This document shows, one piece after another, positions 1 through 64,000 of a stretch of 64,000 nt of DNA. The notes under the pieces were generated by a model that saw only the letters and a list, made by a program, of their open reading frames with translations, was not told where the DNA came from and ran no database searches. Source of the DNA: a virus (lineage: Duplodnaviria; Heunggongvirae; Uroviricota; Caudoviricetes). Each line of letters begins with the position of its first letter. Position 1 is the stretch's first letter. The stretch lies in IMG/VR virus record IMGVR_UViG_3300031420_000399. The stretch is one strand, 5' to 3'. Both the position numbers and the translations under genes were made by a program.

Positions 1-91
1 TCTTCGGATCCGTCGCCGCTTTGTCGTTGGGACAGCAGTCAGATGTTAGAGTCGATCTAGCCCACGAGGGACAGAAGAGAGCTGAACACGG

Positions 92-556
92 ATGGCCCAA
101 GAGATGAGTCGAACCGAAAGGCTCCTAGCGAGCCGGAAGGAGCGCCGCAGAAAGCGCTGGAGCAGGCTCCAGGGCGTGCTCATCCTTCTTCTTGTGATCG
201 TCCTTCCTACGGCGGTTTTCGGCGTAGTTCCTTGGGCCATGGGCACCTACGACAGCAGCCATCACCACACCATCGAATGCTCTGTCACCAAGGTCTATGC
301 TGAATCGACTTCGACTCGCTCTGGCAGGGGTGTAGGAGCCTCGGGTCGTCAGATAGTCTTCGCCACGAGCGACTGTGGAGGTCACATCCTTCTCACCAAT
401 GGAGTCTACTGGGACAATGTGAAGGAGCTCGCCGCCTCACTGAAGCCAGGTCGCTACGAGTTCACTGTCGGAGACTCCGAGTGGAAACTCGCTCCGATCT
501 ACAAGGTCTTCAGGGTCTCCCCATCGGCCCAGAAGTACAGCTACCTGGGCCTCTGA
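92..556 (+). CDS. hypothetical membrane-anchored protein (basic N-terminus, one TM helix, beta-rich domain; DUF3592-like architecture)
   Basis: 154-aa ORF; hydrophobic helix LILLLVIVLPTAVFGVV after an RKERRRKR stretch; high GC3. Confidence 0.5.
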   Translation: MAQEMSRTERLLASRKERRRKRWSRLQGVLILLLVIVLPTAVFGVVPWAMGTYDSSHHHTIECSVTKVYAESTSTRSGRGVGASGRQIVFATSDCGGHILLTNGVYWDNVKELAASLKPGRYEFTVGDSEWKLAPIYKVFRVSPSAQKYSYLGL

Positions 557-642
557 TCCAACAGCTATGCGGAGCTGAGACCCTTGGCCTGTGGCTTTGG
601 TAACTTTACCAAGGGCCTCGACACGCCGATCTCCTACTCGAG

Positions 643-672
643 TTGCGCCTTTTGCTGATGCTGTGATAGAGT
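643..672 (+). promoter_or_regulatory. promoter (family): TTGCGC-18-tgaTAGAGT
   Basis: drives the sRNA-like unit; no ORF follows. Confidence 0.5.
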
Positions 673-686
673 GTTCTTGCAGGCAC

Positions 687-747
687 CTTGAGGTGGCTAC
701 TTTTATTTGGAAAACGATCGCTGTCTCGCCTTCCCTGCACTTGAACG
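687..747 (+). repeat. 60-nt direct repeat copy A (CCTTGAGGTGGCTACT...GTCTCGCCTTCCCTG), about 80 percent identical to copy B
   Basis: 15-nt identical core CTTGAGGTGGCTACT at 687-701 and 955-969, then similar tails. Confidence 0.6.
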
Positions 748-790
748 CCCCGGACTCAGACCATCGAGTCCGGGGCTTCTCCCATTTTCG
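748..790 (+). terminator. intrinsic terminator: 10-bp stem CCCCGGACTC/GAGTCCGGGG, loop agaccatc, tail cttctcccatttt
   Basis: ends the sRNA-like unit. Confidence 0.55.
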
Positions 791-807
791 GGTAGCTGGG
801 GTCTCTC

Positions 808-884
808 ATCAACCCAGGAGGGTTGATAGCGGCTAAATCAACCCAGGAGCGTTGATAGTCTGAGATCAATCTCCTAGCATTGAT
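808..884 (+). promoter_or_regulatory. three adjacent imperfect palindromes with ATCAA...TTGAT half-sites (candidate operator cluster)
   Basis: ATCAACCCaggagGGTTGATAG (808-829), ATCAACCCaggagCGTTGATAG (838-859), ATCAATctcctagcATTGAT (865-884); 25-100 nt upstream of promoter B. Confidence 0.5.
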
Positions 885-908
885 TCGGCCGTAGTCGGCG
901 ATTCCCCA

Positions 909-938
909 TTGACAGCTGCCTGCATCCCATGTTAGGGT
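909..938 (+). promoter_or_regulatory. promoter: TTGACA-18-tgtTAGGGT for the TerD-domain gene
   Basis: perfect -35; extended -10. Confidence 0.55.
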
Positions 939-954
939 GGATTCTGTCAGGCCC

Positions 955-1013
955 CTTGAGGTGGCTACTCACTCCTTATTGAACCCGCCGTCTCGCCTTT
1001 CCTGACCTTAGCT
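955..1013 (+). repeat. 60-nt direct repeat copy B forming the 5' leader of the TerD-domain gene
   Basis: lies between promoter B (909-938) and ATG 1040. Confidence 0.6.
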
Positions 1014-1039
1014 TTTTACCCGAAGGGAAACACCACCAC

Positions 1040-4185: not shown

Positions 4186-4213
4186 TTGCGGATTTCTGGC
4201 TTCCATGTAGGAT
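4186..4213 (+). promoter_or_regulatory. promoter: TTGCGG-16-tgTAGGAT, leaderless ATG 4221
   Basis: 7 nt from -10 to ATG. Confidence 0.6.
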
Positions 4214-4220
4214 CGGATCC

Positions 4221-4619
4221 ATGGAACAGATCGAAGCATTCCTCGAGGGCCTTCTGGGTTCCCTGAGCTCAGTCCCCGGCCTTGAGGCTGCTGGCTCCGT
4301 CGCGCTCTTTCTCACCGCTGCTGTTGCGCTGATTTCCAAGCTGGCTATCTACGCAGTTCCCGTCTACATCTTCGGGAAGATGATGCGCCGGCCGAAGTTC
4401 GAGCCCCGGAAGATCATCACGGTCATCCTGTTAGGAGCTGTCACTCCCGTGGTCTTCGGCTTCCTCGCACAGCTCGGCCCCTACATCAACTTCGGCTTCT
4501 GGTCCGGAGCGCTCGTCGGCACTCCCTGGTACTACTTCTTCTTCCGGCCCCGGCTCATTCGTCGCTACGCTAAGCGCGCTGCTCGCAGTGCCGGCCGTAC
4601 TGTTGCGAAGCTTCGCTGA
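4221..4619 (+). CDS. membrane protein (132 aa)
   Basis: ATG 7 nt after -10 TAGGAT (4208-4213), implying a leaderless start; multiple hydrophobic helices. Confidence 0.55.
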   Translation: MEQIEAFLEGLLGSLSSVPGLEAAGSVALFLTAAVALISKLAIYAVPVYIFGKMMRRPKFEPRKIITVILLGAVTPVVFGFLAQLGPYINFGFWSGALVGTPWYYFFFRPRLIRRYAKRAARSAGRTVAKLR

Positions 4620-4631
4620 TCGGTGTAAGGT
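4603..4631 (+). promoter_or_regulatory. promoter: TTGCGA-17-tgTAAGGT, leaderless ATG 4638
   Basis: -35 lies inside the 3' end of the upstream gene. Confidence 0.55.
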
Positions 4632-5466: not shown

Positions 5467-5496
5467 TTGCGCTTTCGTGCTCCATGGATGTAGGAT
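5467..5496 (+). promoter_or_regulatory. promoter: TTGCGC-18-tgTAGGAT, leaderless ATG 5503
   Basis: 6 nt gap. Confidence 0.6.
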
Positions 5497-6237: not shown

Positions 6238-6266
6238 TTGACAGCTCCACACTCTGGGCATAGGAT
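6238..6266 (+). promoter_or_regulatory. promoter: TTGACA-17-TAGGAT, leadered (ATG 6311)
   Basis: consensus hexamers. Confidence 0.55.
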
Positions 6267-6310
6267 CATTCCACACCACATCTTCACCGCAGACTGAAAG
6301 CAGGTTTCCC

Positions 6311-6769: not shown

Positions 6770-6788
6770 GGGCCAACTTCCCCTCTAG

Positions 6789-6830
6789 AAGCAGTGCTTT
6801 CGCAACACGATGCGAAAGCACTGCTTTCCT
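6789..6830 (+). terminator. terminator: 16-bp perfect stem AAGCAGTGCTTTCGCA/TGCGAAAGCACTGCTT, loop acacga
   Basis: after gene 6311-6769. Confidence 0.6.
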
Positions 6831-6861: not shown

Positions 6862-6900
6862 GCCTAGAGATCAACAGCTGTCGACCCTCTAGCCTGCGCG
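6862..6900 (+). repeat. hairpin-family element e1: GCCTAGAG-loop-CTCTAGCC-TGCGCG
   Basis: shares GCTAGAG/CTCTAGC arms, a CAGCTG-containing loop and a TGCGCG flank with 29737-29775 and 51522-51564. Confidence 0.45.
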
Positions 6901-6979: not shown

Positions 6980-7008
6980 TTGCCAAAGCTGCCCTTTGGG
7001 AGTATAGT
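6980..7008 (+). promoter_or_regulatory. promoter: TTGCCA-17-TATAGT (ATG 7047)
   Basis: spacing and hexamers. Confidence 0.5.
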
Positions 7009-9046: not shown

Positions 9047-9082
9047 GGGCCCCGGTTGCAGCTTCGGTTGCAATCGGGGCCC
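9047..9082 (+). terminator. 14-bp hairpin GGGCCCCGGTTGCA/TGCAATCGGGGCCC (one G-U) overlapping the -35 of the next promoter
   Basis: after gene 8721-9029. Confidence 0.45.
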
Positions 9083-9096
9083 TCTTCGTGTATGGT
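9068..9096 (+). promoter_or_regulatory. promoter: TTGCAA-17-tgTATGGT for the paralog-array operon (ATG 9106)
   Basis: -35 embedded in hairpin 9047-9082. Confidence 0.55.
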
Positions 9097-12309: not shown

Positions 12310-12338
12310 TTGCGGTTTGCGCTCTCCCGATGTAGGAT
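12310..12338 (+). promoter_or_regulatory. promoter: TTGCGG-17-tgTAGGAT (ATG 12379)
   Basis: family consensus. Confidence 0.55.
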
Positions 12339-15912: not shown

Positions 15913-15940
15913 TTGCGCTTCGATAGAAAGCGTGTACAGT
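15913..15940 (+). promoter_or_regulatory. promoter: TTGCGC-16-tgTACAGT (ATG 15996)
   Basis: family consensus. Confidence 0.5.
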
Positions 15941-15995
15941 AGTGCTCACACCACAACCTCGGAGCTCACCACTCCACTGCTCAAAGGATTTCATC

Positions 15996-16163: not shown

Positions 16164-16178
16164 GCGCTCCTGACCACA

Positions 16179-16223
16179 GGGACTGCCGCCAGATTCACGC
16201 GATCTGGCGGCAGTCCCGTTTTC
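16179..16223 (+). terminator. intrinsic terminator: 16-bp perfect stem GGGACTGCCGCCAGAT/ATCTGGCGGCAGTCCC plus GTTTTC
   Basis: after gene 15996-16163. Confidence 0.75.
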
Positions 16224-16323
16224 ATATGAGCTTCCGGTGAGCTCCTTGTGGGCTCCTGCACTTCGTTACCATCTCGATATGGAAGCAGGCAATCAAAAGA
16301 GCAGCAATAGCCAGGAGAGACCT

Positions 16324-16984: not shown

Positions 16985-17012
16985 TTGCGCTTATGTCACA
17001 TAGTTTTAGGAT
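16985..17012 (+). promoter_or_regulatory. promoter: TTGCGC-16-TAGGAT upstream of secreted paralog S1
   Basis: about 70-nt leader to TTG 17090. Confidence 0.5.
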
Positions 17013-18260: not shown

Positions 18261-18315
18261 GCAAAGGAGCATGTGAGCTCGTTCAATCGCTCACATGCTC
18301 CTTTGCTGTTTCGTG
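18261..18315 (+). terminator. terminator: 18-bp perfect stem GCAAAGGAGCATGTGAGC/GCTCACATGCTCCTTTGC, tail tgtttcg
   Basis: between S1 and S2. Confidence 0.65.
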
Positions 18316-22148: not shown

Positions 22149-22177
22149 TTGCCTTCTGAGCACTACTGCGTTAGAGT
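22149..22177 (+). promoter_or_regulatory. promoter: TTGCCT-17-TAGAGT, leaderless ATG 22185
   Basis: 7 nt gap. Confidence 0.55.
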
Positions 22178-22695: not shown

Positions 22696-22725
22696 TTGAC
22701 ATCTGTAGCTCCTCGGTCATAGGAT
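22696..22725 (+). promoter_or_regulatory. promoter: TTGACA-18-TAGGAT, leaderless ATG 22732
   Basis: 6 nt gap. Confidence 0.6.
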
Positions 22726-23104: not shown

Positions 23105-23134
23105 TTGACATCGCTCAGCTCCTCGGTATACGAT
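23105..23134 (+). promoter_or_regulatory. promoter: TTGACA-18-TACGAT with AT-rich upstream (aaaaattttt) (ATG 23189)
   Basis: perfect -35 and UP-like A5T5 tract. Confidence 0.55.
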
Positions 23135-24363: not shown

Positions 24364-24408
24364 AGGGGCCTGAATAACTCAGGCTGTTCAGGCCCCTCCT
24401 AAAACTTT
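24364..24408 (+). terminator. 11-bp stem AGGGGCCTGAA/TTCAGGCCCCT with nested inner pairing, A/T-rich tail
   Basis: after gene 23189-24340. Confidence 0.5.
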
Positions 24409-24442
24409 ACAGAGACTGGGATTCCGGGTCGAGCGGCCCGGT

Positions 24443-24629
24443 GGATGTGGTGTTCAATCGCCGCTCCCCGGAATCCCATCATACGAGGCGACGACATGCG
24501 GAGTGGTGTCCGTTGTCGCCTCTGGGTGAGATGAGTCCCTCGCACGGATGTGGTGTTCAGCGAGGTGAGGCCCTCCCCACATGGGGCGGTTCCGAGAACG
24601 GATGTGGTGTTCTCTCTCGGAACCGCCCC
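24443..24629 (+). repeat. iteron-like cluster: GGATGTGGTGTTC x3 (24443, 24546, 24600), degenerate GGAGTGGTGTCC (24500), and two hairpins
   Basis: the third repeat lies in the loop of a 15-bp perfect stem GGGGCGGTTCCGAGA/TCTCGGAACCGCCCC (24583-24629); 8-bp stem GAGGCGAC/GTCGCCTC (24485-24522) encloses the degenerate copy. Confidence 0.55.
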
Positions 24630-24658
24630 ACTTCTTTGCACCCTGTGAGTAAGGACAC

Positions 24659-26547: not shown

Positions 26548-26576
26548 TTGCGGATCGATGGGCTTTCATGTAGCAT
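26548..26576 (+). promoter_or_regulatory. promoter: TTGCGG-17-tgTAGCAT, leaderless ATG 26583
   Basis: 6 nt gap. Confidence 0.6.
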
Positions 26577-29775: not shown

Positions 29776-29857
29776 TTCAGGTTGCGAAATCAGCCCGTCT
29801 CTCCGGTCCAAAAATCGATCGGGCCGATCCTTTGAATCTGCATTCTGGGCTCATAGT

Positions 29858-29885
29858 TGTGAAAGCCTAGCTGTCCATGTAGGAT
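29858..29885 (+). promoter_or_regulatory. promoter: TTGTGA-16-tgTAGGAT, leaderless ATG 29892
   Basis: 6 nt gap. Confidence 0.55.
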
Positions 29886-31437: not shown

Positions 31438-31466
31438 TTGACAGGGTGCTCTCCTCCATGTAAGGT
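31438..31466 (+). promoter_or_regulatory. promoter: TTGACA-17-tgTAAGGT (ATG 31511)
   Basis: perfect -35. Confidence 0.6.
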
Positions 31467-32563: not shown

Positions 32564-32585
32564 GCCTCACGGCTAATCCCTCCAA

Positions 32586-32623
32586 GGGCTCCCCAACCTT
32601 CGGGTTGGGGAGCCCTTCCCATT
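32586..32623 (+). terminator. intrinsic terminator: 13-bp perfect stem GGGCTCCCCAACC/GGTTGGGGAGCCC, tetraloop ttcg, tail ttcccatt
   Basis: after SPFH gene. Confidence 0.7.
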
Positions 32624-32671: not shown

Positions 32672-32701
32672 TTGCCAGATGCCCACCTAAGGGCATAGAA
32701 T
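32672..32701 (+). promoter_or_regulatory. promoter: TTGCCA-18-TAGAAT, leaderless ATG 32709
   Basis: 7 nt gap. Confidence 0.55.
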
Positions 32702-33041: not shown

Positions 33042-33070
33042 TTGCGGGGCTCCTTTCCTGTGTGTACGAT
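33042..33070 (+). promoter_or_regulatory. promoter: TTGCGG-17-tgTACGAT, leaderless ATG 33077
   Basis: 6 nt gap. Confidence 0.55.
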
Positions 33071-34301: not shown

Positions 34302-34339
34302 TTCTGGCCCAGTAGCCAACCATCGCTACTGGGCCAGAA
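34302..34339 (+). terminator. 15-bp perfect hairpin TTCTGGCCCAGTAGC/GCTACTGGGCCAGAA (no U-tract)
   Basis: after gene 33382-34284. Confidence 0.5.
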
Positions 34340-34364: not shown

Positions 34365-34393
34365 TTGTGGACCATGGATCCATGGTGTAACAT
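34365..34393 (+). promoter_or_regulatory. promoter: TTGTGG-17-tgTAACAT, leaderless ATG 34401
   Basis: 7 nt gap. Confidence 0.5.
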
Positions 34394-37176: not shown

Positions 37177-37205
37177 TTGACAGGATGACCGCATCCGCGT
37201 AGGAT
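37177..37205 (+). promoter_or_regulatory. promoter: TTGACA-17-TAGGAT, leaderless ATG 37212
   Basis: perfect -35; 6 nt gap. Confidence 0.65.
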
Positions 37206-38511: not shown

Positions 38512-38540
38512 TCGCGGAAGCTTCTCCCATCGTGTATGAT
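38512..38540 (+). promoter_or_regulatory. promoter: TCGCGG-17-tgTATGAT (ATG 38592, DUF808)
   Basis: one-mismatch -35. Confidence 0.45.
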
Positions 38541-39927: not shown

Positions 39928-39956
39928 TTGCGCAGGGCTGAAAGCATGTGTATGGT
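39928..39956 (+). promoter_or_regulatory. promoter: TTGCGC-17-tgTATGGT, leaderless ATG 39964
   Basis: 7 nt gap. Confidence 0.6.
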
Positions 39957-40938: not shown

Positions 40939-40967
40939 TTGCACAGGGAGCGAAGAGGGTGTAGTGT
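40939..40967 (+). promoter_or_regulatory. promoter: TTGCAC-17-tgTAGTGT, leaderless ATG 40974
   Basis: 6 nt gap. Confidence 0.55.
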
Positions 40968-42533: not shown

Positions 42534-42562
42534 TTGCGCAGGCCTCTGAGAGGGTGTATGGT
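42534..42562 (+). promoter_or_regulatory. promoter: TTGCGC-17-tgTATGGT (ATG 42616; trio + AAA unit)
   Basis: family consensus. Confidence 0.55.
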
Positions 42563-44460: not shown

Positions 44461-44489
44461 TTGCTAGGGCTGTTCCCGTGGTGTATGGT
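44461..44489 (+). promoter_or_regulatory. promoter: TTGCTA-17-tgTATGGT upstream of the AAA ATPase
   Basis: about 60-nt leader to GTG 44549. Confidence 0.5.
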
Positions 44490-45904: not shown

Positions 45905-45952
45905 GCCCGGCGGCGATAGCATAGGCTGAGACCGATGGAGAGGGGAGAGCGC

Positions 45953-47078: not shown

Positions 47079-47108
47079 TTGCATTTTCATCAGCGACCAT
47101 GTTACGGT
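47079..47108 (+). promoter_or_regulatory. promoter: TTGCAT-18-tgtTACGGT (ATG 47192)
   Basis: spacing and hexamers. Confidence 0.45.
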
Positions 47109-49011: not shown

Positions 49012-49065
49012 AGCAACGGCCCTGAGCTCCGGAGAGGAAATCTCAGGGCCGTTGCTCTTTGCTCG
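49012..49065 (+). terminator. terminator: 15-bp perfect stem AGCAACGGCCCTGAG/CTCAGGGCCGTTGCT, tail ctttgctcg
   Basis: after gene 47585-48958. Confidence 0.6.
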
Positions 49066-49080
49066 ATAGTCATGTAGCAT
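49052..49080 (+). promoter_or_regulatory. promoter: TTGCTC-17-tgTAGCAT (ATG 49138)
   Basis: -35 sits in the 3' arm of terminator 49012-49056. Confidence 0.5.
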
Positions 49081-51521: not shown

Positions 51522-51568
51522 ACGCAGCCTAGAGCATCGACAGCTATTGATCTCTAGGCTGCGTTTTC
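51522..51568 (+). terminator. intrinsic terminator: 13-bp perfect stem ACGCAGCCTAGAG/CTCTAGGCTGCGT plus TTTT (hairpin-family element e3)
   Basis: after gene 50908-51432. Confidence 0.7.
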
Positions 51569-51644
51569 AGCTGCGAAATTCCGACCTTGAGCTGAGACCG
51601 AAAATCGCTCGGTGGACGGGTGAGAGGATCAAGCTACGCTCCAG

Positions 51645-51673
51645 TTGCGCTTGACAATGTTCCCGTGTAGTAT
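51645..51673 (+). promoter_or_regulatory. promoter: TTGCGC-17-tgTAGTAT, leaderless ATG 51680 (SprT-like)
   Basis: 6 nt gap. Confidence 0.6.
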
Positions 51674-53845: not shown

Positions 53846-53874
53846 TTGCGGAAAACCCAGCGGCCGCGTAGGAT
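53846..53874 (+). promoter_or_regulatory. promoter: TTGCGG-17-TAGGAT (ATG 53916)
   Basis: family consensus. Confidence 0.55.
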
Positions 53875-54633: not shown

Positions 54634-54662
54634 TTGCGCTGAGAGTTTTCACGGTGTAGGTT
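54634..54662 (+). promoter_or_regulatory. promoter: TTGCGC-17-tgTAGGTT upstream of the Lsr2-like gene
   Basis: about 55-nt leader to TTG 54724. Confidence 0.55.
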
Positions 54663-55345: not shown

Positions 55346-55374
55346 TTGCGCAGACTGTGTTCAGGGTGTATGGT
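55346..55374 (+). promoter_or_regulatory. promoter: TTGCGC-17-tgTATGGT (ATG 55419)
   Basis: family consensus. Confidence 0.55.
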
Positions 55375-56566: not shown

Positions 56567-56624
56567 TCCGTCGACCACCAAACAGATGTTAGCCGGACAA
56601 CCCGTCCGAGAAAGTAGGTTCACC

Positions 56625-56726
56625 ATGGCCAAGAAGCGTATCGGTGGAGCACCTCGCTCCCTTGTGATCTTCATGGCAGCTCTCGCGCTCGCCGCCCTCG
56701 TCATGGGCATGGTCTCAGGGTTCTGA
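56625..56726 (+). CDS. possible 33-aa hydrophobic peptide
   Basis: ATG 5 nt after TAGGTT (56614-56619); MAKKRIGGAPRSLVIFMAALALAALVMGMVSGF; very short, weak support. Confidence 0.3.
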   Translation: MAKKRIGGAPRSLVIFMAALALAALVMGMVSGF

Positions 56727-56781
56727 GGCCTCGAGAGGGCTCTAGCCCTCACAGCAGCCGATAGTAGGCTGTCTACACCTA

Positions 56782-57906: not shown

Positions 57907-57935
57907 TTGACAGGGCTGGAATCAGTGGTTAGCAT
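57907..57935 (+). promoter_or_regulatory. promoter: TTGACA-17-TAGCAT upstream of the MazG-like gene
   Basis: perfect -35. Confidence 0.6.
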
Positions 57936-59245: not shown

Positions 59246-60610
59246 ATGTGGCATGACCACAGCACGATTCGGTACGACGAACTCGAACCCGCCATGCCAA
59301 CGGTACCTGAATACGGAGACACCATGGAACAGAACGCCATCAGCTACGCTGCAGAGGTCGCCCAGCAGCCCCTTGAAGCTAGGCCTTCAGTGGAAAACGC
59401 CAAGCTGTTCAAGCTGATCTACAACGGCAGCCTGGATGAAGACCTCCTTCAGCGCGCAGTTGAGGATCGACCGATCTCTCAGAAGGCCAAGGACCAGTGG
59501 CACTGCTCTGGGATTCGGAAGCTCCTCAACGGAAGCCTCAACATGGGATCCAAGAACGATCTCGAAAAGGCTACTGCAATCTCAAGGAAGATCTCCCGGT
59601 TTATGATCGAGCAGCCCGAGAGCTTTGCTGCTCTCCCCGCCGCTGACCAGGAGGAGATCCGTAGGCTCCACATCAACACTGGCTCTAGGGAGTGGGTCAA
59701 CGAAGAGGAGCAGCTCCTTGCCCTGAAGATCGAGTCGAGCTCTGAGCTCCTGAGCGAGTTCGGCATGAACTTCAGCTCTACTCCCGCCCAAGAGCTCAAC
59801 CAGAATCTGACCGGCACCGAGATGGTGAACTTCAGCTGGGACAGCTGCGGCCACAGAGACTACCGGGCTGCCTACGCAATCAACACCGCCATCAACAAGA
59901 AGAAGTCGCCCTACTGTAGGGAGTGCTACACGCTCGACAACTCGCTGATCACCTGGTATCAGCTCAACGAAGACTTCCTCCTGAGCTCTCAGGTTGACAT
60001 CTCCCAGGTCTCCTCCGTGGACCTGCTAGCATCCGCCTACAGCAAGACGAAGATCAACATCGGCTATGGCTGCGGCCACAGGGAAAACACTACCTTCCAG
60101 TCCCTCAAGGACAAGGTGAAGCGCGCTCAGGAGCTCGGCCAGGAGACGATCAGCTGCAACGCCTGCAAGGTTCCCGACGGAACATTTGAGGTCGGCATCA
60201 GGATGGCCATTCAGCTCGCAACTGCCTTCGTTCCTGGAGTCACCATCGAGAAGCAGGTTGAGCTCGATGGGCTGAAGGGCAAGCCCTACGACATGCTCAT
60301 CAGGCTAGAGTCTGGTAAGCTCTACTTCATCGAGGTAGATGGAGGACTCCACTACAAGCCGTTCAACAGACTCGGCCAAGATGAATTTGACCGTAAGATC
60401 GAAGTCGATCGGGAGAAGACAGAAGCGATTCTAGCCCTGGGCCACGGTCTCATTCGGATCGACGAGCGCAACCACCGCGGCGAAGTCACTGAAGAGCTTG
60501 CAGCTGTGCTCAGTGCAGCGCTCCGAGGTACTCTGGGAAACTACACAGTGATCGGCGAAGAGTGCCCCGGAGCTCAGCTCGTCTCCGATGAGCGCAAGGG
60601 TTGGGCCTAG
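59246..60610 (+). CDS. Zn-ribbon protein with C-terminal DUF559/Vsr-like (PD-(D/E)XK) nuclease domain
   Basis: two CxxC...CxxC clusters; C-terminal MLIRLESGKLYFIEVDGGLHY...DRKIEVDREKTEAILALGHGLIRI fits the DUF559 pattern; start uncertain (ATG 59246, 59294 or 59324). Confidence 0.55.
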   Translation: MWHDHSTIRYDELEPAMPTVPEYGDTMEQNAISYAAEVAQQPLEARPSVENAKLFKLIYNGSLDEDLLQRAVEDRPISQKAKDQWHCSGIRKLLNGSLNMGSKNDLEKATAISRKISRFMIEQPESFAALPAADQEEIRRLHINTGSREWVNEEEQLLALKIESSSELLSEFGMNFSSTPAQELNQNLTGTEMVNFSWDSCGHRDYRAAYAINTAINKKKSPYCRECYTLDNSLITWYQLNEDFLLSSQVDISQVSSVDLLASAYSKTKINIGYGCGHRENTTFQSLKDKVKRAQELGQETISCNACKVPDGTFEVGIRMAIQLATAFVPGVTIEKQVELDGLKGKPYDMLIRLESGKLYFIEVDGGLHYKPFNRLGQDEFDRKIEVDREKTEAILALGHGLIRIDERNHRGEVTEELAAVLSAALRGTLGNYTVIGEECPGAQLVSDERKGWA

Positions 60611-61026
60611 AGGTCCTCGACCCACTCGATGAGCTTGTCTGCGATTTCGGCTACCTCGTCATCGTCGCTGAGCCCAATGCCCTGATCGCCGACGAGCTCA
60701 TTCCAGTAGTCTTCGTCGGTGGGATCGTAGAAGGCCACGGTTGCTTCGCTCTGGATGAGGAAGGGCCGCCAGCGAGCGAGGAACTGCTTCCGGGTCTGAA
60801 GCCCGTTGGCGTCGAGGATCTGACCGTCCTCGAGCTCAACTGCCATGTGGCACCACCAGTCGGTGTCCCGGCTCTCGACTGCGGCAATGAGCCTGCCAGT
60901 ACCTCGCAGGTGGAGCTCCCTGGCGAGCTTCCAGCAGTCGGAGGAGGTGAAGGTGTCGACCTCGTCCGTGGTGCAGGGCGAGACCTCGAGGAGGAGGTCC
61001 TGGTCGGTGGTGGTGATCCTACGCAT
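60607..61026 (-). CDS. hypothetical protein (139 aa), only minus-strand gene
   Basis: leaderless ATG (plus 61024-61026) 7 nt after a minus-strand tgTACAGT; stop codons overlap the convergent gene at CTAG. Confidence 0.5.
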   Translation of the reverse strand: MRRITTTDQDLLLEVSPCTTDEVDTFTSSDCWKLARELHLRGTGRLIAAVESRDTDWWCHMAVELEDGQILDANGLQTRKQFLARWRPFLIQSEATVAFYDPTDEDYWNELVGDQGIGLSDDDEVAEIADKLIEWVEDL

Positions 61027-61033
61027 GGGAGGA

Positions 61034-61062
61034 ACTGTACACACGGGAGAGCGAATCCGCAA
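61034..61062 (-). promoter_or_regulatory. promoter (minus strand): TTGCGG-17-tgTACAGT, leaderless minus-strand ATG at 61024-61026
   Basis: reverse complement of plus CCGCAA (61057-61062) and ACTGTACA (61034-61041); 7 nt gap. Confidence 0.55.
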
Positions 61063-61078
61063 CTCTTTCTTCAGCCCG

Positions 61079-61107
61079 TTGCGCAGCTGTAGATAGCCGT
61101 GTATGGT
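61079..61107 (+). promoter_or_regulatory. promoter: TTGCGC-17-tgTATGGT, leaderless ATG 61115 (divergent pair, + side)
   Basis: 7 nt gap. Confidence 0.6.
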
Positions 61108-61114
61108 GAGACCT

Positions 61115-61687
61115 ATGTATGATCCCACCAATGAGCAGGCACTGCTGAAGCTCGAGTCCGACATCAACGCCATCTACCAGGTCATCAAGAGCGGTCACGA
61201 CAGCGTGAACGAGGCCTGGGAGACCGCCCTGGCCACAGTTCGCGTGCTCGCAGCTCGCTGGAACCACATCCCTACCCGCAAGGCACTGAACTTCATGGAG
61301 ACCCTAGAGGATCTCATGGAGGAAGAGGAGCTCGATCGGCCCACCGCTCTCCAGAAGCTCGGGGAGGTCCGTGGCGAGCAGTTCGAGCTCCAGGGTGATC
61401 CCACCCTGAAGTTCACCACCATCGAGCACACCGCCAACGGGTCGGTGATCCGGAAGGATATCCTCAGCGCCAGCAAGCCCATCGTTCTGCGCATCGAGGG
61501 CAACAAGGACAGGGAGAAGCTCTACGAGGTCACCATCCGTAGGCAGACCAACCAGCACGGCTACCCAAGCAGCTTCTTCTTGAGCCCGGGACGAAAGCTG
61601 GAGGTCTCCGGCATGGAGAACGGCGAGACCATGCTCATCAACATCGATCCGGAGAGCTACGAGCTCGTCATCGAGCGCACTCGATAG
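61115..61687 (+). CDS. hypothetical protein (190 aa)
   Basis: leaderless ATG 7 nt after tgTATGGT (61102-61107); the track start 61103 lies inside the -10. Confidence 0.55.
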   Translation: MYDPTNEQALLKLESDINAIYQVIKSGHDSVNEAWETALATVRVLAARWNHIPTRKALNFMETLEDLMEEEELDRPTALQKLGEVRGEQFELQGDPTLKFTTIEHTANGSVIRKDILSASKPIVLRIEGNKDREKLYEVTIRRQTNQHGYPSSFFLSPGRKLEVSGMENGETMLINIDPESYELVIERTR

Positions 61688-61721
61688 GGTGAACTCAGTA
61701 CACTCACAGAAGGAACTGTAG

Positions 61722-62282
61722 ATGGAAGAGCAGACAGTACGAGATCGCACCCGGAGTGCGCTCATCGATGGCCTTCGGGCCACCAACCTCGTGGTCGTCC
61801 TGGGAGAGAGCCACATTCCCGGACAGCTCAAGGTCGATGAGCTCATGAGCTACCTCGAGAATGCCGGGGTGCTGGCGGCTGAAGAAGCACCGGAACCTGA
61901 AGGCACCGAGGTCGCCCTGGAGCTCAAGAGGACCTCCTACGCCATGCCTGAGCAGTATGAAGCATTCCTCGATGGCCGGCAGGTCGGTTACCTCCGGCTT
62001 CGCCACGGAACCTTTCGAGCCCACTACCCGGACCACATGGCCCCTCCTGTCTACATCGCTGAGACTATGGGCTCCGCATCCTTCGATGGCCGAGAGCGAG
62101 AGCAGCAGATCCGAGCAGCTCTCGTCGAGATCCTAAAGGCCGATGGGCTGGAGAATCCGATCCCGGGCTTCGACCTCCCCGAGCGTCACGATGAAGAGAT
62201 GATCGAGGAAGTCCGAGTTCTTATGGAGGATACCAGCTCGACTCTCCGAACCCGGCGCTCGAGGACCGGCCGGCACAGCTAA
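61722..62282 (+). CDS. hypothetical protein (186 aa)
   Basis: SD AGAAGGAA. Confidence 0.55.
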   Translation: MEEQTVRDRTRSALIDGLRATNLVVVLGESHIPGQLKVDELMSYLENAGVLAAEEAPEPEGTEVALELKRTSYAMPEQYEAFLDGRQVGYLRLRHGTFRAHYPDHMAPPVYIAETMGSASFDGREREQQIRAALVEILKADGLENPIPGFDLPERHDEEMIEEVRVLMEDTSSTLRTRRSRTGRHS

Positions 62283-62319
62283 GGTTTCAGTGAGATTCCT
62301 CAGAGATCACCCAGAACCT

Positions 62320-62898
62320 ATGGTGGAGCGGGAAAGCTCGTTTGCTTCTGCCGTCGAACAGGCGACTTCCCCTGTGGTAGATGCTGCGGCTTCGACAGCC
62401 CCAGAGGAGAGCACCGAGAGCCAGGCACAGGATGAAACGCCGAAGCCTAGAGGCATCTACTTCGGTCAGCTCCTTGCAGTGACTGGTTTCTGGTCAGGGG
62501 CAGCTCTCCTCCCCTGGCTCTCGGGAAACCCCGAGCCCATGTTCGGAGCTGTGCCAGCTGGGCTCTACGCGACGGTTGCACTCCCTTTCAGCCTCTACTT
62601 CGCTACCGTGGCGAACCCTCAGGTACCGATCACTTCTAGGCCATATGGCCTTGAGCGCATCGACCAGGATGGAAAGAGAACCGTCTACGGCCTCGCGCAA
62701 ATCCACCGAAGGATGACAGCCGAGGAAGAGGAAGCGCTCAGGGCTGGCAACGCAGCTGCTCAGCTCAAGCGACTTGCGAGGTTAGAGCTAGAGAGGTCCC
62801 AGCGGCGAGAGATGAGGGCGCTTCGAAAGCTGGAACGCGCTACCCGAAGAAAGCAGTCGCTCATGGCTAGGCTTTCTGAGCTCGAACAGAGGCGATAG
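62320..62898 (+). CDS. membrane protein with C-terminal coiled coil (192 aa)
   Basis: ATG 62320 (track GTG 62290 also possible); two TM helices then Arg/Glu-rich coiled coil. Confidence 0.5.
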   Translation: MVERESSFASAVEQATSPVVDAAASTAPEESTESQAQDETPKPRGIYFGQLLAVTGFWSGAALLPWLSGNPEPMFGAVPAGLYATVALPFSLYFATVANPQVPITSRPYGLERIDQDGKRTVYGLAQIHRRMTAEEEEALRAGNAAAQLKRLARLELERSQRREMRALRKLERATRRKQSLMARLSELEQRR

Positions 62899-62942
62899 TC
62901 CCAGAGCATCACGAACCGCAGACCTTCCCGGAGGTAGAGCCC

Positions 62943-63515
62943 ATGACTGACCCAGAGATCACCGAAAATAGCTCCTCGGAGCACCTCGAAGATGGAGTGC
63001 CTCCGAGGCCTCACTTCGGTCTCTCCAGGCGTGGTACAGTCGGGCTGATCATCGTCGCTGCACTTCTGGTTGGGGGTGCTGTCGGGCTGGTCAAGTGGAA
63101 CGAGAACCACAATGAGCTCCAGGCTGCACAGCGCTCAGAGGCGCTGGCTCAAGCCTGGAAGAAGGCTCAGCCCAAGAGGGCTCAGGGCGTCGACTTCGAG
63201 CTCAAGATCTCCAGTACCAGCGCTGCAGGCCATCCGGTGCTCGTCTTCGATCACAGTGGCAAGGTCACTGCCAAGGACAGCTGTTTTCAGGCTTCGAGCA
63301 AGTACATGGTCCTCAAGGATGGCAGCCTTGTGATCCGAGATCTCAGTGGAACTGATAGCGGAAATCGGGGAGACTGTGCCGGCAAGAGCATCAGCCCGAT
63401 CTTCCTCAGTAGCAAGGTGAGCTTCCAGGGCAAGGGCTGGACAGCCTACGGTCCAGATGAAAAGGCCCTAGTTGAGAATCTCAAGGAGATAGACTCAAAG
63501 GTGAAGACAGCCTGA
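62943..63515 (+). CDS. membrane-anchored protein, possibly META-like (190 aa)
   Basis: SD GGAGGTAGAG; N-terminal TM helix; two conserved Cys. Confidence 0.5.
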   Translation: MTDPEITENSSSEHLEDGVPPRPHFGLSRRGTVGLIIVAALLVGGAVGLVKWNENHNELQAAQRSEALAQAWKKAQPKRAQGVDFELKISSTSAAGHPVLVFDHSGKVTAKDSCFQASSKYMVLKDGSLVIRDLSGTDSGNRGDCAGKSISPIFLSSKVSFQGKGWTAYGPDEKALVENLKEIDSKVKTA

Positions 63516-63588
63516 GTCCAGGAGGTTTCAGCCCGACGGCTTCGGTAGGATGAACCCTGACAGACACTTAGCATTCGAGCACCGGGAG

Positions 63589-64000
63589 ATGGCCGTGGCA
63601 AAAGAGTACGGCGAGCGCATCGAGGTAGAATCCGAGCCTCTGAGCTCCAAGAGCCTCGGGAGCTTCGACTCAAGCGACTCCGAGGGCAACCTAGAGATCG
63701 TAACAGTCGAGGAACAGGTCTTTAGGACCAGCCTCCAGGGGACCAGCGCAGTGGGCTACAAGTTCAGCAGGGAACGGGTCGGCAAGCTCAAGAGCTCCAG
63801 CGCTCTGCGGCTGTTCAACAACTTCTTCTCCTTCCTCATCTGTGGCTTCGCCATCTACCTACTCCTCAACCCCAAGGTTGACCTGGGTCTGCCCAACATC
63901 GTCTACAGCCTTTCTGCCTTCGGCGTCTTCCTCTTCCTAACCTCCATCGAGAACAGGAAGCTCAGGAAGATCCTACTCCTCAAGAACAGCCACAAGGCAA
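63589..64000 (+). CDS. partial CDS (runs off window end), membrane protein
   Basis: ATG after TAGCAT (63569-63574); open frame to window end with hydrophobic segments; not in ORF track because there is no stop. Confidence 0.35.
   Translation, partial: MAVAKEYGERIEVESEPLSSKSLGSFDSSDSEGNLEIVTVEEQVFRTSLQGTSAVGYKFSRERVGKLKSSSALRLFNNFFSFLICGFAIYLLLNPKVDLGLPNIVYSLSAFGVFLFLTSIENRKLRKILLLKNSHKA

What the first reader, a model, noticed from the sequence alone, without database searches (positions are those of the whole stretch)
1..64000. One promoter consensus reused at least 35 times, about half driving leaderless genes
I located at least 35 sites fitting -35 TTGCGC/TTGCGG/TTGACA, a 17 +/- 1 nt spacer and -10 tgTAGGAT/tgTATGGT (TANNNT with TG immediately upstream), each positioned just before an ORF start. 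At 17 of them the start codon lies exactly 6-7 nt after the -10 hexamer, so the mRNA would begin at its start codon with no 5' UTR or Shine-Dalgarno sequence. This is a housekeeping-sigma-type motif, so the element appears to use host RNA polymerase from nearly identical promoters. That degree of uniformity is more typical of phage or plasmid regulons than of chromosomes.
Basis: seen in the sequence. Interest (0 to 1): 0.7.

Follow-up and report, generated by a model that had tools for sequence, protein, structure and literature searches.

The report
Dense actinobacterial-type promoters, half leaderless
A very large, uncultivated phage-like DNA element of a high-GC Gram-positive (actinobacterial) host carries about 36 near-consensus housekeeping-type promoters in 64 kb, and about half sit directly against a start codon, so the mRNA would have no leader; this is a known strategy used at unusual density, and a new structured RNA appears to be linked to it.

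Summary
TTGNNN-N16-18-TANNNT occurs 35 times on the + strand of the 8.6 kb of intergenic DNA. That compares with 5 on the - strand, 2.9 in shuffles and 4 inside 55 kb of genes. One more site drives the only - strand gene. Seventeen genes have TANNNT 6-7 nt before their ATG. Hexamers, spacing and the leaderless geometry recur upstream of orthologues in relatives with 70% and 41% protein identity, while the spacers diverge.

The motif (gTTGCGN, 17 nt, tgTAGGAT or tgTATGGT, then nG) matches the SigA/HrdB-type promoters of Actinomycetota. The best reading is host sigma-A RNA polymerase transcribing many short units, some bounded by hairpins.

"Nearly identical" is overstated, because only the hexamers are shared. 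Host RNA polymerase use and the 5' ends are inferred, not shown.

The element is a metagenomic contig family (149 kb, 193 kb or more) with no hallmark genes in the 82 kb I could read.

Two things were new. An ACACCAC motif sits at the predicted transcript 5' ends. A conserved, covarying four-hairpin RNA at 24.4 kb, absent from Rfam, has invariant loops antisense to that motif.

Verdict: a real feature and a new member of a known kind, of moderate interest.

The parts
643..672 (+). Promoter-like site: TTGCGC, 18 nt, TAGAGT. It is followed by a roughly 100-nt unit that ends at hairpin 747-776 (candidate small RNA).
852..880 (+). Weaker promoter-like site: TTGATA, 17 nt, TAGCAT.
909..938 (+). Promoter-like site: TTGACA, 18 nt, TAGGGT. 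Leadered; gene start at 1040.
4186..4213 (+). Promoter: TTGCGG, 16 nt, tgTAGGAT. Leaderless; ATG at 4221, 7 nt after the -10.
4603..4631 (+). Promoter: TTGCGA, 17 nt, tgTAAGGT. Leaderless; ATG at 4638.
5467..5496 (+). Promoter: TTGCGC, 18 nt, tgTAGGAT. Leaderless; ATG at 5503.
6238..6266 (+). Promoter: TTGACA, 17 nt, TAGGAT. Leadered; the predicted 5' end reads ACACCACATC; gene start at 6311.
6980..7008 (+). Promoter: TTGCCA, 17 nt, TATAGT. Leadered; gene start at 7047.
9068..9096 (+). Promoter: TTGCAA, 17 nt, tgTATGGT. Leadered; gene start at 9136. The -35 lies in the 3' arm of hairpin 9047-9082.
12310..12338 (+). Promoter: TTGCGG, 17 nt, tgTAGGAT. Leadered; gene start at 12379.
15913..15940 (+). 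Promoter: TTGCGC, 16 nt, tgTACAGT. Leadered; gene start at 15996.
16985..17012 (+). Promoter: TTGCGC, 16 nt, TAGGAT. Leadered; gene start at 17090.
22149..22177 (+). Promoter: TTGCCT, 17 nt, TAGAGT. Leaderless ATG at 22185. The public gene call at 22317 is probably too short.
22696..22725 (+). Promoter: TTGACA, 18 nt, TAGGAT. Leaderless; ATG at 22732.
23105..23134 (+). Promoter: TTGACA, 18 nt, TACGAT. It has a CA-rich leader. It would drive the gene at 23189 (Rho_N domain) and probably the structured RNA downstream.
26548..26576 (+). Promoter: TTGCGG, 17 nt, tgTAGCAT. Leaderless; ATG at 26583. Conserved upstream of the orthologues in L010 and L011.
29857..29885 (+). Promoter: TTGTGA, 17 nt, tgTAGGAT. 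Leaderless; ATG at 29892. Conserved in L010.
31438..31466 (+). Promoter: TTGACA, 17 nt, tgTAAGGT. Leadered; gene start at 31511.
32672..32701 (+). Promoter: TTGCCA, 18 nt, TAGAAT. Leaderless; ATG at 32709.
33042..33070 (+). Promoter: TTGCGG, 17 nt, tgTACGAT. Leaderless; ATG at 33077. The -35 lies in the 3' arm of hairpin 33020-33056.
34365..34393 (+). Promoter: TTGTGG, 17 nt, tgTAACAT. Leaderless ATG at 34401. The public gene call at 34374 starts inside the promoter.
37177..37205 (+). Promoter: TTGACA, 17 nt, TAGGAT. Leaderless; ATG at 37212.
38512..38540 (+). Promoter: TCGCGG, 17 nt, tgTATGAT. Leadered; gene start at 38592 (DUF808).
39928..39956 (+). Promoter: TTGCGC, 17 nt, tgTATGGT. Leaderless ATG at 39964. 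The public gene call at 39946 starts inside the promoter.
40939..40967 (+). Promoter: TTGCAC, 17 nt, tgTAGTGT. Leaderless; ATG at 40974.
42534..42562 (+). Promoter: TTGCGC, 17 nt, tgTATGGT. Leadered; the predicted 5' end reads ACACCACACACC; gene start at 42616.
44461..44489 (+). Promoter: TTGCTA, 17 nt, tgTATGGT. Leadered; drives the AAA ATPase gene at 44549. An in-frame TTG 5 nt after the -10 makes the start ambiguous.
45922..45927 (+). A -10-only site, TAGGCT, 7 nt before ATG 45935 (cation efflux gene). No recognisable -35.
47079..47108 (+). Promoter-like site: TTGCAT, 18 nt, TACGGT. Leadered; gene start at 47192.
49052..49080 (+). Promoter: TTGCTC, 17 nt, tgTAGCAT. Leadered; gene start at 49138.
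51645..51673 (+). Promoter: TTGCGC, 17 nt, tgTAGTAT. Leaderless; ATG at 51680 (SprT-like).
53846..53874 (+). Promoter: TTGCGG, 17 nt, TAGGAT. Leadered; gene start at 53916.
54634..54662 (+). Promoter: TTGCGC, 17 nt, tgTAGGTT. Leadered; gene start at 54724.
55346..55374 (+). Promoter: TTGCGC, 17 nt, tgTATGGT. Leadered; gene start at 55419.
57907..57935 (+). Promoter: TTGACA, 17 nt, TAGCAT. Leadered; gene start at 57983 (MazG).
61079..61107 (+). Promoter: TTGCGC, 17 nt, tgTATGGT. Leaderless; ATG at 61115. Divergent from the - strand promoter.
61034..61062 (-). The only strong - strand promoter: TTGCGG, 17 nt, tgTACAGT. It is leaderless for the only - strand gene (60607-61026; ATG at 61026, 7 nt after the -10).
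24401..24639 (+). Conserved structured RNA candidate with four stem-loops, each capped by GGA(U)GUGGUGUYC. The last hairpin plus CUUCUUU looks like a terminator. The loops are antisense to the ACACCAC 5' motif.
6788..6827 (+). Terminator-like hairpin (17-bp stem) 19 nt after a stop codon.
16179..16217 (+). Terminator-like hairpin (17-bp stem) followed by GTTTTC.
18261..18306 (+). Terminator-like hairpin (18-bp stem).
32584..32617 (+). Terminator-like hairpin (15-bp stem) between gene 31511-32563 and promoter 32672.
34302..34339 (+). Terminator-like hairpin (15-bp stem) just upstream of promoter 34365.

Best explanation
The sites are genuine sigma-70-family housekeeping-type promoters, of the SigA/HrdB type found in Actinomycetota. 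They lie on a very large, unidirectionally transcribed, phage-like mobile element known only from metagenomes.

How it most likely works:
- Host RNA polymerase with the primary sigma factor binds gTTGCGN (-35) and tgTANNNT (-10), 17 +/- 1 nt apart. It starts 7-8 nt after the -10, at an A preceded by C or T.
- This happens about every 1.8 kb, so the 64 kb is expressed as roughly 35-45 short units of 1-3 genes. Several units are bounded by strong hairpins placed 16-24 nt after stop codons.
- At 16-17 units the start nucleotide is the A of the ATG. The mRNA then has no 5' UTR and no Shine-Dalgarno sequence and would be translated by the leaderless route that is common in Actinobacteria.
- The other first genes have 32-95 nt leaders that end in a Shine-Dalgarno sequence.
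- Both classes tend to begin with a C/A-rich ACACCAC sequence.

Shown here: non-random occurrence, strand and position specificity, exact spacing to the ATG, and conservation of the hexamers and geometry (but not the spacers) in divergent relatives.

Inferred: which polymerase and sigma factor is used, the actual 5' ends, promoter strength and timing, and that the element is a phage.
For: Statistics:
- 18 strict matches against 0.25 expected.
- 35 intergenic + strand matches, against 5 on the - strand and 2.9 in shuffles, with only 4 inside genes.
- A clean gap in the PWM scores.
- 32 of 59 intergenic gaps of at least 40 nt carry a site.

Geometry:
- 17 genes have TANNNT 6-7 nt before the ATG. 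Only 21 of 795 ATG triplets have this.
- All 15 bipartite leaderless starts are ATG, whereas 15 of the 92 + strand genes overall start with GTG or TTG.
- At 4638, 5503, 26583, 29892, 37212, 40974 and 51680 this ATG is the first possible start codon of the ORF.
- Independent public gene calls place the starts at these ATGs.
- 59 of the 77 non-leaderless + strand genes have a Shine-Dalgarno-like match.

Conservation:
- The orthologue of gene 26583 keeps the promoter plus a leaderless ATG in L010 (70% amino-acid identity) and L011 (41%), with diverged spacers. The orthologue of gene 29892 does so in L010.
- L011 and the flanks L002 and L012 carry further sites.
- Across the related loci, TG-extended sites number 22 in the sense orientation and 1 antisense.

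Match to known SigA specificity:
- The optimal mycobacterial -35 is TTGCGA, in the pattern TTGCGA-N18+/-1-TANNNT, with a purine at +1 (PMC1616969).
- The window has 24 matches to TTGCGA-N16-18-TANNNT with at most one mismatch on the + strand.

Host phylum:
- The DUF808 gene's closest cellular relatives are Rothia, Brevibacterium, Corynebacterium and Propionibacteriaceae.
- The 714-aa protein is closest to proteins of Mycobacterium phage WXIN, Rhodococcus phage Weasels2 and Mycolicibacterium plasmids.

Precedent: SigA-like promoters giving leaderless mRNAs are described in Cluster O mycobacteriophages (PMC4351075).
Against: - There is no transcript data, so start sites and the leaderless status rest on sequence geometry.
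- The TG lies at -14/-13, one base closer to the hexamer than the TGn extended -10 described for mycobacteria and Streptomyces. Recognition may therefore differ in detail.
- The spacer optimum here is 17 nt, against 18 nt reported for mycobacteria.
- Only about 82 kb of an element of at least 149 kb was readable, so an element-encoded sigma factor cannot be excluded.
- The host is inferred only to phylum level.
- A generic scan based on the E. coli consensus sees few of these sites (7 against 3.5 expected in 20 kb), because TTGCGC and TAGGAT are poor matches to TTGACA and TATAAT.
- Some weaker sites (852, 909, 47079) may not be functional.
- At four sites (the promoters at 9068, 38512, 44461 and 53846) a GTG or TTG lies 5 nt after the -10, so the class is ambiguous.
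Confidence: 0.8

Rival explanations
1. The motif is read by a sigma-70-family factor encoded by the element itself, or by a host group-2 SigB-like factor, rather than by the host primary sigma. The uniform consensus would then be the signature of a private regulon.
For: The consensus is tighter than is typical of actinobacterial chromosomes. Only 3 perfect and 112 one-mismatch TTGCGA-N18-TANNNT sites were found in all M. tuberculosis 5' UTRs (PMC1616969). The TG is in a non-canonical register at -14/-13. There are two distinct -10/discriminator sub-types. Most of the element could not be inspected.
Against: No sigma factor or RNA polymerase gene was seen among the 93 window proteins or the flanks (and the precomputed Pfam hits). 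The hexamers fit the published primary-sigma specificity. Known phage-specific sigmas usually recognise clearly different motifs (own knowledge).
Confidence: 0.12
2. The promoters are real, but the 'leaderless' starts are annotation artefacts. Translation would begin at a downstream start codon, and the ATG next to the -10 would be incidental or part of the initial transcribed sequence.
For: No proteomic or ribosome-profiling data exist. Three public gene calls disagree with the leaderless ATG (22317, 34374, 39946). The orthologue of the TPM-domain gene in L011 appears to be leadered.
Against: ATG at exactly 6-7 nt occurs at 16 of about 36 sites, where about 0.8 would be expected by chance (the 0.8 is my own rough estimate from base composition). 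These ATGs open the long ORFs in frame, and at 7 sites they are the first possible start codon. The coding sequence is conserved from that ATG onward in L010. All are ATG, as leaderless translation prefers.
Confidence: 0.07
3. The sites are not promoters but copies of a dispersed repeat (a MITE-like element, a recombination or packaging signal, or an operator array), or they are a chance product of intergenic composition.
For: The sites are numerous, strand-biased and intergenic, as dispersed repeats and operator arrays such as the stoperators of Cluster A mycobacteriophages also are (own knowledge).
Against: Only two hexamers at a fixed spacing are conserved. The spacers and flanks are unrelated, which fits a bipartite protein-binding site and not copies of one element. 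Composition-matched shuffles and the opposite strand give 3-5 matches against 35. The exact register to the start codons is not expected of a repeat.
Confidence: 0.02

Closest known systems
SigA-like promoters with leaderless transcripts in mycobacteriophages (for example Cluster O: Corndog and relatives; PMC4351075)
   Same: These are host-type -35/-10 promoters placed in intergenic regions of an actinobacterial virus. [quoted passage not shown] Terminator hairpins delimit the units.
   Different: Cluster O phages have 8-9 such promoters per genome of roughly 70 kb (genome size from my own knowledge), in both directions. Here there are about 36 in 64 kb, all but one in one direction, with a much tighter consensus including the -35. 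The element is at least 149-193 kb and shows no DNA similarity to any sequenced phage.
Mycobacterial/actinobacterial primary-sigma promoter consensus (TTGCGA-N18+/-1-TANNNT, extended -10 TGn, purine +1; PMC1616969) and Streptomyces HrdB (TTGAC-like -35, TGNNANNNT; PMC12809767)
   Same: The -35 is TTGCG(N) or TTGACA. The -10 is TANNNT, with the TAGGAT and TAGRRT flavours. There is a TG upstream of the -10, an A at the predicted +1 preceded by a pyrimidine, and a G two bases after the hexamer.
   Different: The TG abuts the hexamer (TGTANNNT, positions -14/-13) instead of TGnTANNNT. The preferred spacer is 17 nt, not 18. The -35 is far better conserved than in chromosomal promoter sets.
Leaderless mRNAs of Actinobacteria
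   Same: The -10 element lies 6-7 nt upstream of an AUG that is both the transcription and the translation start. There is no Shine-Dalgarno sequence, and the start codon is always AUG.
   Different: About 45% of the promoter-proximal genes are leaderless here. From my own knowledge, roughly one quarter to one third of genes with a mapped transcription start are leaderless in mycobacteria, corynebacteria and Streptomyces. The leaderless genes also share a nucleotide-level start, ATG-[GA]AC-ACC-AC, across unrelated proteins.
Phage promoter regulons read by phage polymerases (for example the 17 T7-type promoters)
   Same: Many copies of one consensus, all co-oriented, drive short units across a viral genome.
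   Different: T7-type promoters are a contiguous conserved block of about 20 bp read by a single-subunit polymerase (own knowledge). Here the conservation is bipartite, with an unconserved 17-nt spacer, which is the hallmark of sigma-70-type recognition.
Multi-hairpin regulatory RNAs (CsrB/RsmZ-type sponges; actinobacterial 6C RNA). This comparison concerns the RNA noticed at 24.4 kb.
   Same: Several stem-loops display the same short conserved loop sequence on covarying stems.
   Different: The loops (GGAUGUGGUGUUC) are not GGA protein-binding mimics or C-rich loops. They are the antisense of a motif found at the 5' ends of the element's own mRNAs. There is no Rfam match.

Membership tests
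Sigma-70-family primary-sigma (SigA/HrdB-type) promoters | Two hexamers (-35 TTGNNN, -10 TANNNT) separated by 16-18 nt with an unconserved spacer | tested here: met
   35 + strand intergenic matches against 2.9 in shuffles. Spacer 17 nt at 25 sites, 18 nt at 7 and 16 nt at 3. The spacer sequences are unrelated.
Sigma-70-family primary-sigma (SigA/HrdB-type) promoters | Located upstream of genes and co-oriented with them; rare inside genes and on the antisense strand | tested here: met
   35 intergenic sites against 4 intragenic on the + strand, and 5 intergenic on the - strand. The single strong - strand site precedes the single - strand gene.
Sigma-70-family primary-sigma (SigA/HrdB-type) promoters | The -35 matches the specificity determined for actinobacterial RNA polymerase (TTGCGA optimum) | tested here: met
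   TTGCG[ACG] at 16 of 35 sites and TTGACA at 7 of 35. There are 24 + strand matches to TTGCGA-N16-18-TANNNT with at most one mismatch (PMC1616969).
Sigma-70-family primary-sigma (SigA/HrdB-type) promoters | Extended -10 TGn at -15/-14 | tested here: not met
   A TG is present at 21 of 35 sites, but it lies directly adjacent to the hexamer (-14/-13), one base off the canonical register.
Sigma-70-family primary-sigma (SigA/HrdB-type) promoters | Transcription initiates 6-8 nt downstream of the -10 and depends on the primary-sigma holoenzyme | not testable with these tools
   There is no RNA data or host. Only the sequence is consistent, with an A preceded by C or T at the expected position.
Leaderless mRNAs (Actinobacteria type) | The start codon coincides with the predicted +1 (the -10 lies 6-7 nt upstream) | tested here: met
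   17 genes (16 on +, 1 on -). Only 21 of 795 ATG triplets have this feature.
Leaderless mRNAs (Actinobacteria type) | AUG start codon and no room for a Shine-Dalgarno sequence on the transcript | tested here: met
   15 of 15 bipartite leaderless starts are ATG. The upstream 6-7 nt is the discriminator.
Leaderless mRNAs (Actinobacteria type) | A mapped 5' triphosphate end at the A of AUG, and translation from it | not testable with these tools
   This requires dRNA-seq or 5'-RACE together with reporter or proteomic data.
Operator/stoperator-type dispersed repressor sites of actinophages (considered) | One contiguous conserved sequence of about 13 bp, repeated | tested here: not met
   The conservation is bipartite. 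No contiguous block of 13 bp or more is shared by the sites.
Tailed phage genome (identity of the element) | Hallmark genes (terminase, portal, major capsid, tail) on the same molecule | tested here: inconclusive
   None were found among 93 window proteins or in the flanks. 23 PHROG families were hit, all accessory or of unknown function. The rest of the element (at least 149-193 kb) was not readable.
Any Rfam RNA family (for the 24.4-kb structured RNA) | A score at or above a family's gathering threshold | tested here: not met
   There were no hits at gathering threshold in the window. The best E-value hits in the region are chance-level.

The most novel reading that the evidence does not exclude
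The promoter array may be one half of a two-layer control system peculiar to a family of giant actinobacterial phage-like elements, whose contigs reach 346 kb and possibly 674 kb. Most transcripts, leadered and leaderless alike, would begin with a shared (GA)ACACCAC(AUCC) tag written into the initial transcribed sequence. A conserved multi-hairpin RNA of about 235 nt, located at 24.4 kb and probably the 3' end of the Rho_N-domain gene's transcript, presents four copies of the exact antisense sequence in its loops. That RNA could base-pair with the 5' ends of dozens of the element's mRNAs. At leaderless ones it would cover the AUG itself, and so could set their translation or stability globally.
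Probability: 0.15. Interest if true: 0.8.

Novelty: new member of a known kind. Interest (0 to 1): 0.45.

Why it matters
The window gives a clean, internally replicated set of about 36 strong-looking promoters for an uncultivated actinobacterial host. It includes about 16 natural leaderless units and about 19 leadered ones that share the same core. This is a ready-made parts list for testing what makes actinobacterial sigma-A promoters strong: a well-conserved -35, a TG at -14/-13, and a G two bases after the -10. It also allows a direct comparison of how leaderless and leadered messages are handled.

It also shows that a very large mobile element (149-193 kb or more) can apparently rely on host-type promoters throughout a long accessory arm, whereas many jumbo phages bring their own polymerase (own knowledge).

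The associated ACACCAC 5' tag and the covarying four-hairpin RNA with antisense loops are not in Rfam. If they are functionally linked, they would be a new kind of global post-transcriptional control in a virus-like element.

Tried and rejected
- Iterating the PWM at a low threshold (8 bits) drifted into generic NNGAT-like sequences and lost the strand bias. I discarded it and kept the model that converged at 13 bits or more.
- The built-in scan based on the E. coli consensus found only 7 sites in the first 20 kb, against 3.5 expected, because TTGCGC and TAGGAT score poorly against TTGACA and TATAAT. Its T-tail terminator rule was at background (14 against 12.3). I did not use it further and ran my own hairpin search instead.
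- Megablast of 44 kb of the window against 50,697 phage records gave no match.
- Relatives were not found in IMG/VR, either by protein or by RNA pattern.
- A tblastn of ten concatenated proteins against the phage records returned essentially only AAA-ATPase hits.
- Pfam and PHROG scans of large and regulatory-position proteins, including the divergent pair at 61 kb, gave no hallmark or regulator assignment.
- Sample accessions were not found in the paper library.
- Literal motif strings did not lead to any paper describing this consensus.
- Half of the metagenome hits to the RNA loop pattern were unrelated tandem repeats or coding sequence and were set aside (L096, L097, L100-L102, L104, L106-L108).
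- I considered stoperator-like or SAS-like dispersed operators and T7-type promoters and rejected them, because the conservation is bipartite.
- Walking along the source contig was not possible, because only proteins encoded in the window may be looked up.

Full report
WHAT THE WINDOW IS

The window is 59-61% G+C and has no tRNA genes. Nearly all long ORFs lie on the + strand. It is identical to metagenome contigs: JGI 3300031417 Ga0308170_10000120 (149,352 bp) and three ENA ERZ27247433 contigs. Proteins of the window are also recorded on a 193-kb contig and on one in the 0.2-1 Mb size class.

The gene calls stored with those records give 93 genes, of which 92 are on the + strand. Coding density is 87%.

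There is no nucleotide similarity to any of 50,697 phage records, and there are no relatives in IMG/VR. Few proteins have a Pfam domain. Those found are TPM, Band_7, DUF808, an AAA ATPase, cation efflux, fatty-acid desaturase, SprT-like, MazG, 2H-SAK, HAD_SAK_2, Rho_N and PGPGW. About 20 proteins hit 23 PHROG families, none of them structural or replicative.

The 714-aa protein is most similar to proteins of Mycobacterium phage WXIN (45%), Rhodococcus phage Weasels2 and Mycolicibacterium plasmids. The DUF808 gene's nearest cellular relatives, at up to 50% identity, are in Rothia, Brevibacterium, Corynebacterium and Propionibacteriaceae.

I therefore treat the window as an accessory arm of a very large phage-like mobile element of an actinobacterial host. 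The phylum is reasonably supported. 'Phage' is not proven.

CHECKING THE OBSERVATION

The strict pattern TTGCN{16,18}TGTANNNT has 18 matches, 17 of them on the + strand. Dinucleotide shuffles give 0.25 +/- 0.52.

The permissive pattern TTGNNN-N16-18-TANNNT matches 35 times on the + strand of the 8,572 nt of intergenic DNA. It matches 5 times on the - strand of the same DNA, and 2.9 +/- 1.7 times in 500 shuffles of those same sequences. It matches only 4 times wholly inside the 55.4 kb of genes on the + strand.

A two-block PWM separates 25 + strand sites and one - strand site (at least 16 bits) from everything else (12.5 bits or less).

Anchoring on the -10 alone removes the ascertainment of the -35. 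Of 25 TGTANNNT on the + strand, 20 have TTG at 17 +/- 1 nt upstream and a 21st has TCGCGG. On the - strand the figure is 1 of 23.

The composition of the 35 sites is as follows:
- -35: TTGCGC 10, TTGACA 7, TTGCGG 5, and 12 other hexamers (13 sites).
- -10: TAGGAT 9, TATGGT 6, TAGCAT 4, and 13 others.
- TG immediately upstream of the -10 at 21 sites.
- Spacer 17 nt at 25 sites, 18 nt at 7 and 16 nt at 3.

Additional conserved positions are a G before the TTG (31 of 35), a G two bases after the hexamer (23 of 35), and C or T at the fifth and sixth positions after it.

The one strong - strand site (61034-61062) sits 7 nt before the ATG of the only - strand gene. It is divergent from the + promoter at 61079.

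LEADERLESS GEOMETRY

One of them (45935) has no recognisable -35.

Only 21 of the 795 ATG triplets on the + strand have such a hexamer, and 16 of those are gene starts. All 15 bipartite leaderless starts are ATG, whereas 15 of the 92 + strand genes use GTG or TTG overall.

At seven of them (4638, 5503, 26583, 29892, 37212, 40974, 51680) the ATG is the first possible start of the ORF. The public gene calls, made independently, use these ATGs in all but three cases. Two of those calls (34374, 39946) start inside the promoter, and one (22317) is probably too short.

The other promoter-proximal genes have predicted leaders of 32-95 nt. Fifty-nine of the 77 non-leaderless + strand genes have a Shine-Dalgarno-like match.

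Four sites have a GTG or TTG 5 nt after the -10 and are ambiguous. These are the promoters at 9068, 38512, 44461 and 53846, whose -10 hexamers start at 9091, 38535, 44484 and 53869.

CONSERVATION ELSEWHERE

The motif continues outside the window. There are six more sites, five of them leaderless, in the 9 kb upstream (L002), and three more in the 10 kb downstream (L012).

Two syntenic relatives were recovered through the 425-aa protein: L010 (70% identity) and L011 (41%). The promoter and the abutting ATG are kept upstream of that gene's orthologue in both, while the spacers differ:
- window: TTGCGG-17-tgTAGCAT-CGAAAC-ATG
- L010: TTGCGC-17-tgTAGGAT-CAGAACT-ATG
- L011: TTGCTT-17-taTAGGAT-AGGACT-ATG

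The TPM-domain gene keeps its promoter and leaderless ATG in L010. In L011 it has a promoter but appears to be leadered.

Over all related loci, TG-extended sites number 22 in the gene orientation and 1 in the opposite orientation. Conservation of the hexamers, the spacing and the register, but not the spacer sequence, is what a protein-recognition site under selection looks like. It argues against a dispersed repeat.

WHAT IT IS AND HOW IT WORKS

The anatomy is that of a primary-sigma promoter. Agarwal and Tyagi derived TTGCGA as the optimal -35 for mycobacterial RNA polymerase. They searched for TTGCGA-N18+/-1-TANNNT in M. tuberculosis 5' UTRs and found only 3 perfect and 112 one-mismatch sites in the whole genome (PMC1616969). 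The same kind of search with N16-18 gives 24 hits on the + strand of this 64-kb window. The promoters here are thus unusually close to the optimum and unusually dense.

TAGGAT-like -10 hexamers and TTGAC-like -35 elements also fit the Streptomyces HrdB consensus.

The most likely mechanism is that host sigma-A holoenzyme initiates at an A 7-8 nt after the -10, roughly every 1.8 kb (median spacing 1.5 kb). Strong perfect hairpins of 13-18 bp lie 16-24 nt after stop codons at 6788, 9047, 16179, 18261, 24364, 32584, 33020 and 34302. At 9047 and 33020 the 3' arm of the hairpin contains the next -35. The units therefore seem to be insulated and tightly packed.

Thirty-two of the 59 intergenic gaps of at least 40 nt have a main-type promoter.

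Two deviations remain unexplained:
- The TG is flush against the hexamer (-14/-13) rather than in the TGn register.
- The preferred spacer is 17 nt rather than 18 nt.

Two sub-types are visible, caTGTAGGATCG and ggTGTATGGTGGACCT. They could reflect shared ancestry or different regulation.

RIVALS

- An element-encoded or alternative sigma-70-family factor cannot be excluded, because most of the element is unread. Nothing sigma-like was seen in the 82 kb.
- Mis-annotated starts are unlikely, given the exact register, the use of ATG only and the conservation.
- Chance or a dispersed repeat is excluded by the controls above.

ACACCAC is the most frequent 7-mer in intergenic DNA. Allowing one mismatch, it is about 10 times denser in the 40 nt after the -10 than elsewhere on the + strand (17 per kb against 1.6 per kb), and it is 0.84 per kb on the - strand. 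Nineteen of 35 promoters have it. Eleven of the 15 exact copies lie 7-18 nt after a -10.

In leadered units the predicted transcript starts with A-CACCAC. In leaderless ones the coding sequence starts with ATG-[GA]AC-ACC-AC, which encodes M-D/N-T-T in unrelated proteins.

The intergenic region 24341-24658 contains the reverse complement, GGATGTGGTGTTC, three times, plus one variant. Each copy sits in the apical part of a hairpin. The 261-nt stretch folds at -129 kcal/mol, with z = -5.8 against shuffles.

The same array lies at the syntenic position, after the Rho_N-domain gene, in L010 and L011. It also occurs in seven further metagenome loci, including contigs of 346 kb and 674 kb.

An RNAalifold consensus of eight distinct sequences has 69 base pairs. 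Twenty-six of these show compensatory double changes, while the loop 13-mers are invariant. The last hairpin is followed by CUUCUUU, like a terminator. No Rfam family matches.

The loop sequence is predicted to pair better with the 35 nt downstream of the promoters than with random windows. The median is -13.5 against -8.8 kcal/mol (Mann-Whitney p = 2e-7), and shuffled loops reach the observed mean in 2 of 200 trials. That test is not independent of the motif enrichment itself.

Whether this RNA pairs with the mRNA 5' ends, whether both bind a common factor, or whether the resemblance is incidental is open. I give the antisense-regulator reading about 15%. A simpler reading of ACACCAC is that it is an unstructured, G-poor initial transcribed and translated sequence that favours promoter escape or ribosome loading. 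This rests on my own knowledge that CA-rich sequences downstream of start codons enhance translation of leadered and leaderless mRNAs in E. coli.

COMPARISON WITH WHAT IS KNOWN, AND VERDICT

SigA-like promoters, some giving leaderless mRNAs, are already described in mycobacteriophages. Cluster O phages have 8-9 per genome (PMC4351075). Leaderless expression is a well-known trait of Actinobacteria.

The finding is therefore a new member of a known kind. It is distinguished by its density, its uniform direction, the tightness of the consensus including the -35, the high share of leaderless units, and the size and novelty of the carrier element.

A housekeeping-sigma-type motif is supported. Host polymerase use is plausible but untested. 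'Nearly identical' is overstated.

Interest is moderate (0.45). It is raised mainly by the 5' tag and the unreported structured RNA that seems tied to it.

Noticed in passing
window 24401-24639 (+); homologues in L010 6100-6340, L011 6990-7215, L094, L095, L098, L099, L103, L105, L109: A conserved RNA candidate of about 235 nt with four stem-loops, each capped by an invariant GGA(U)GUGGUGUYC. The fold has z = -5.8 against shuffles. Of 69 consensus pairs across 8 sequences, 26 show compensatory changes. There is no Rfam match. It lies after the Rho_N-domain gene and ends in a terminator-like hairpin. Some carrier contigs are 346 kb and 674 kb.
   Followed up: yes
window, 7-18 nt after the -10 of 19 of 35 promoters (for example 6267-6285, 15941-15960, 37206-37225, 39957-39980, 42563-42580): An ACACCAC motif lies at the predicted 5' ends of transcripts. 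It is about 10-fold enriched relative to the rest of the + strand. Leaderless genes share ATG-[GA]AC-ACC-AC (M-D/N-T-T). It is the reverse complement of the loop sequence of the 24.4-kb RNA.
   Followed up: partly
window 8683, 14457, 35163, 36089, 39552, 56760, 58526, 62894 (+): (C)GATAGT occurs 13 times on the + strand and 2 times on the - strand. Eight copies lie 38-89 nt upstream of gene starts, seven of them in intergenic gaps that lack the main promoter type and one (62894) in the last codons of the preceding gene. This may be a second, -10-only promoter class (GATAGT has A at position 2 and T at position 6) with no recognisable -35.
   Followed up: partly
window 643-800 and 909-1039 (+): Two paralogous units of about 100 nt each follow a promoter. 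They share CAGGCNCCTTGAGGTGGCTACT ... CGCNGTCTCGCCTTNCCTG. The first ends at hairpin 747-776 plus a T-rich tail (candidate small RNA). The second runs into the 714-aa gene as its 5' leader. There is no Rfam match.
   Followed up: partly
window 60607-61115: This is the only divergent arrangement in the 82 kb read. A 139-aa gene on the - strand and a 190-aa gene on the + strand are both leaderless, driven by back-to-back promoters whose -35 hexamers are 16 bp apart (edge to edge). This could be a regulatory switch. Neither protein has a Pfam domain.
   Followed up: partly
window 9047-9082 and 33020-33056: Terminator-like hairpins whose 3' arm contains the -35 hexamer of the next promoter. The end of one unit and the start of the next therefore overlap physically.
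   Followed up: no
window 6870-6900, 29735-29770, 51535-51570: A similar inverted-repeat block, (C)CTAGAG(C)ATC...CTCTAG(G/C)CTGCGCG, recurs in three long intergenic regions upstream of promoters. I saw it by eye in the intergenic listing.
   Followed up: no
window 16000-24000: A stretch of lower G+C (55-58%) holds several genes of 290-450 aa (one with BNR-like repeats) and long intergenic gaps. It has few main-type promoters and no PHROG or Pfam assignment. Its composition differs from the rest of the window.
   Followed up: no
window 42175-42615, 20825-21266, 56567-56802: Long 'intergenic' gaps in the public gene calls contain uncalled ORF-like sequence (for example ATG at 42177 and at 56626). 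The gene list is therefore incomplete, and the intergenic length is slightly overestimated.
   Followed up: no
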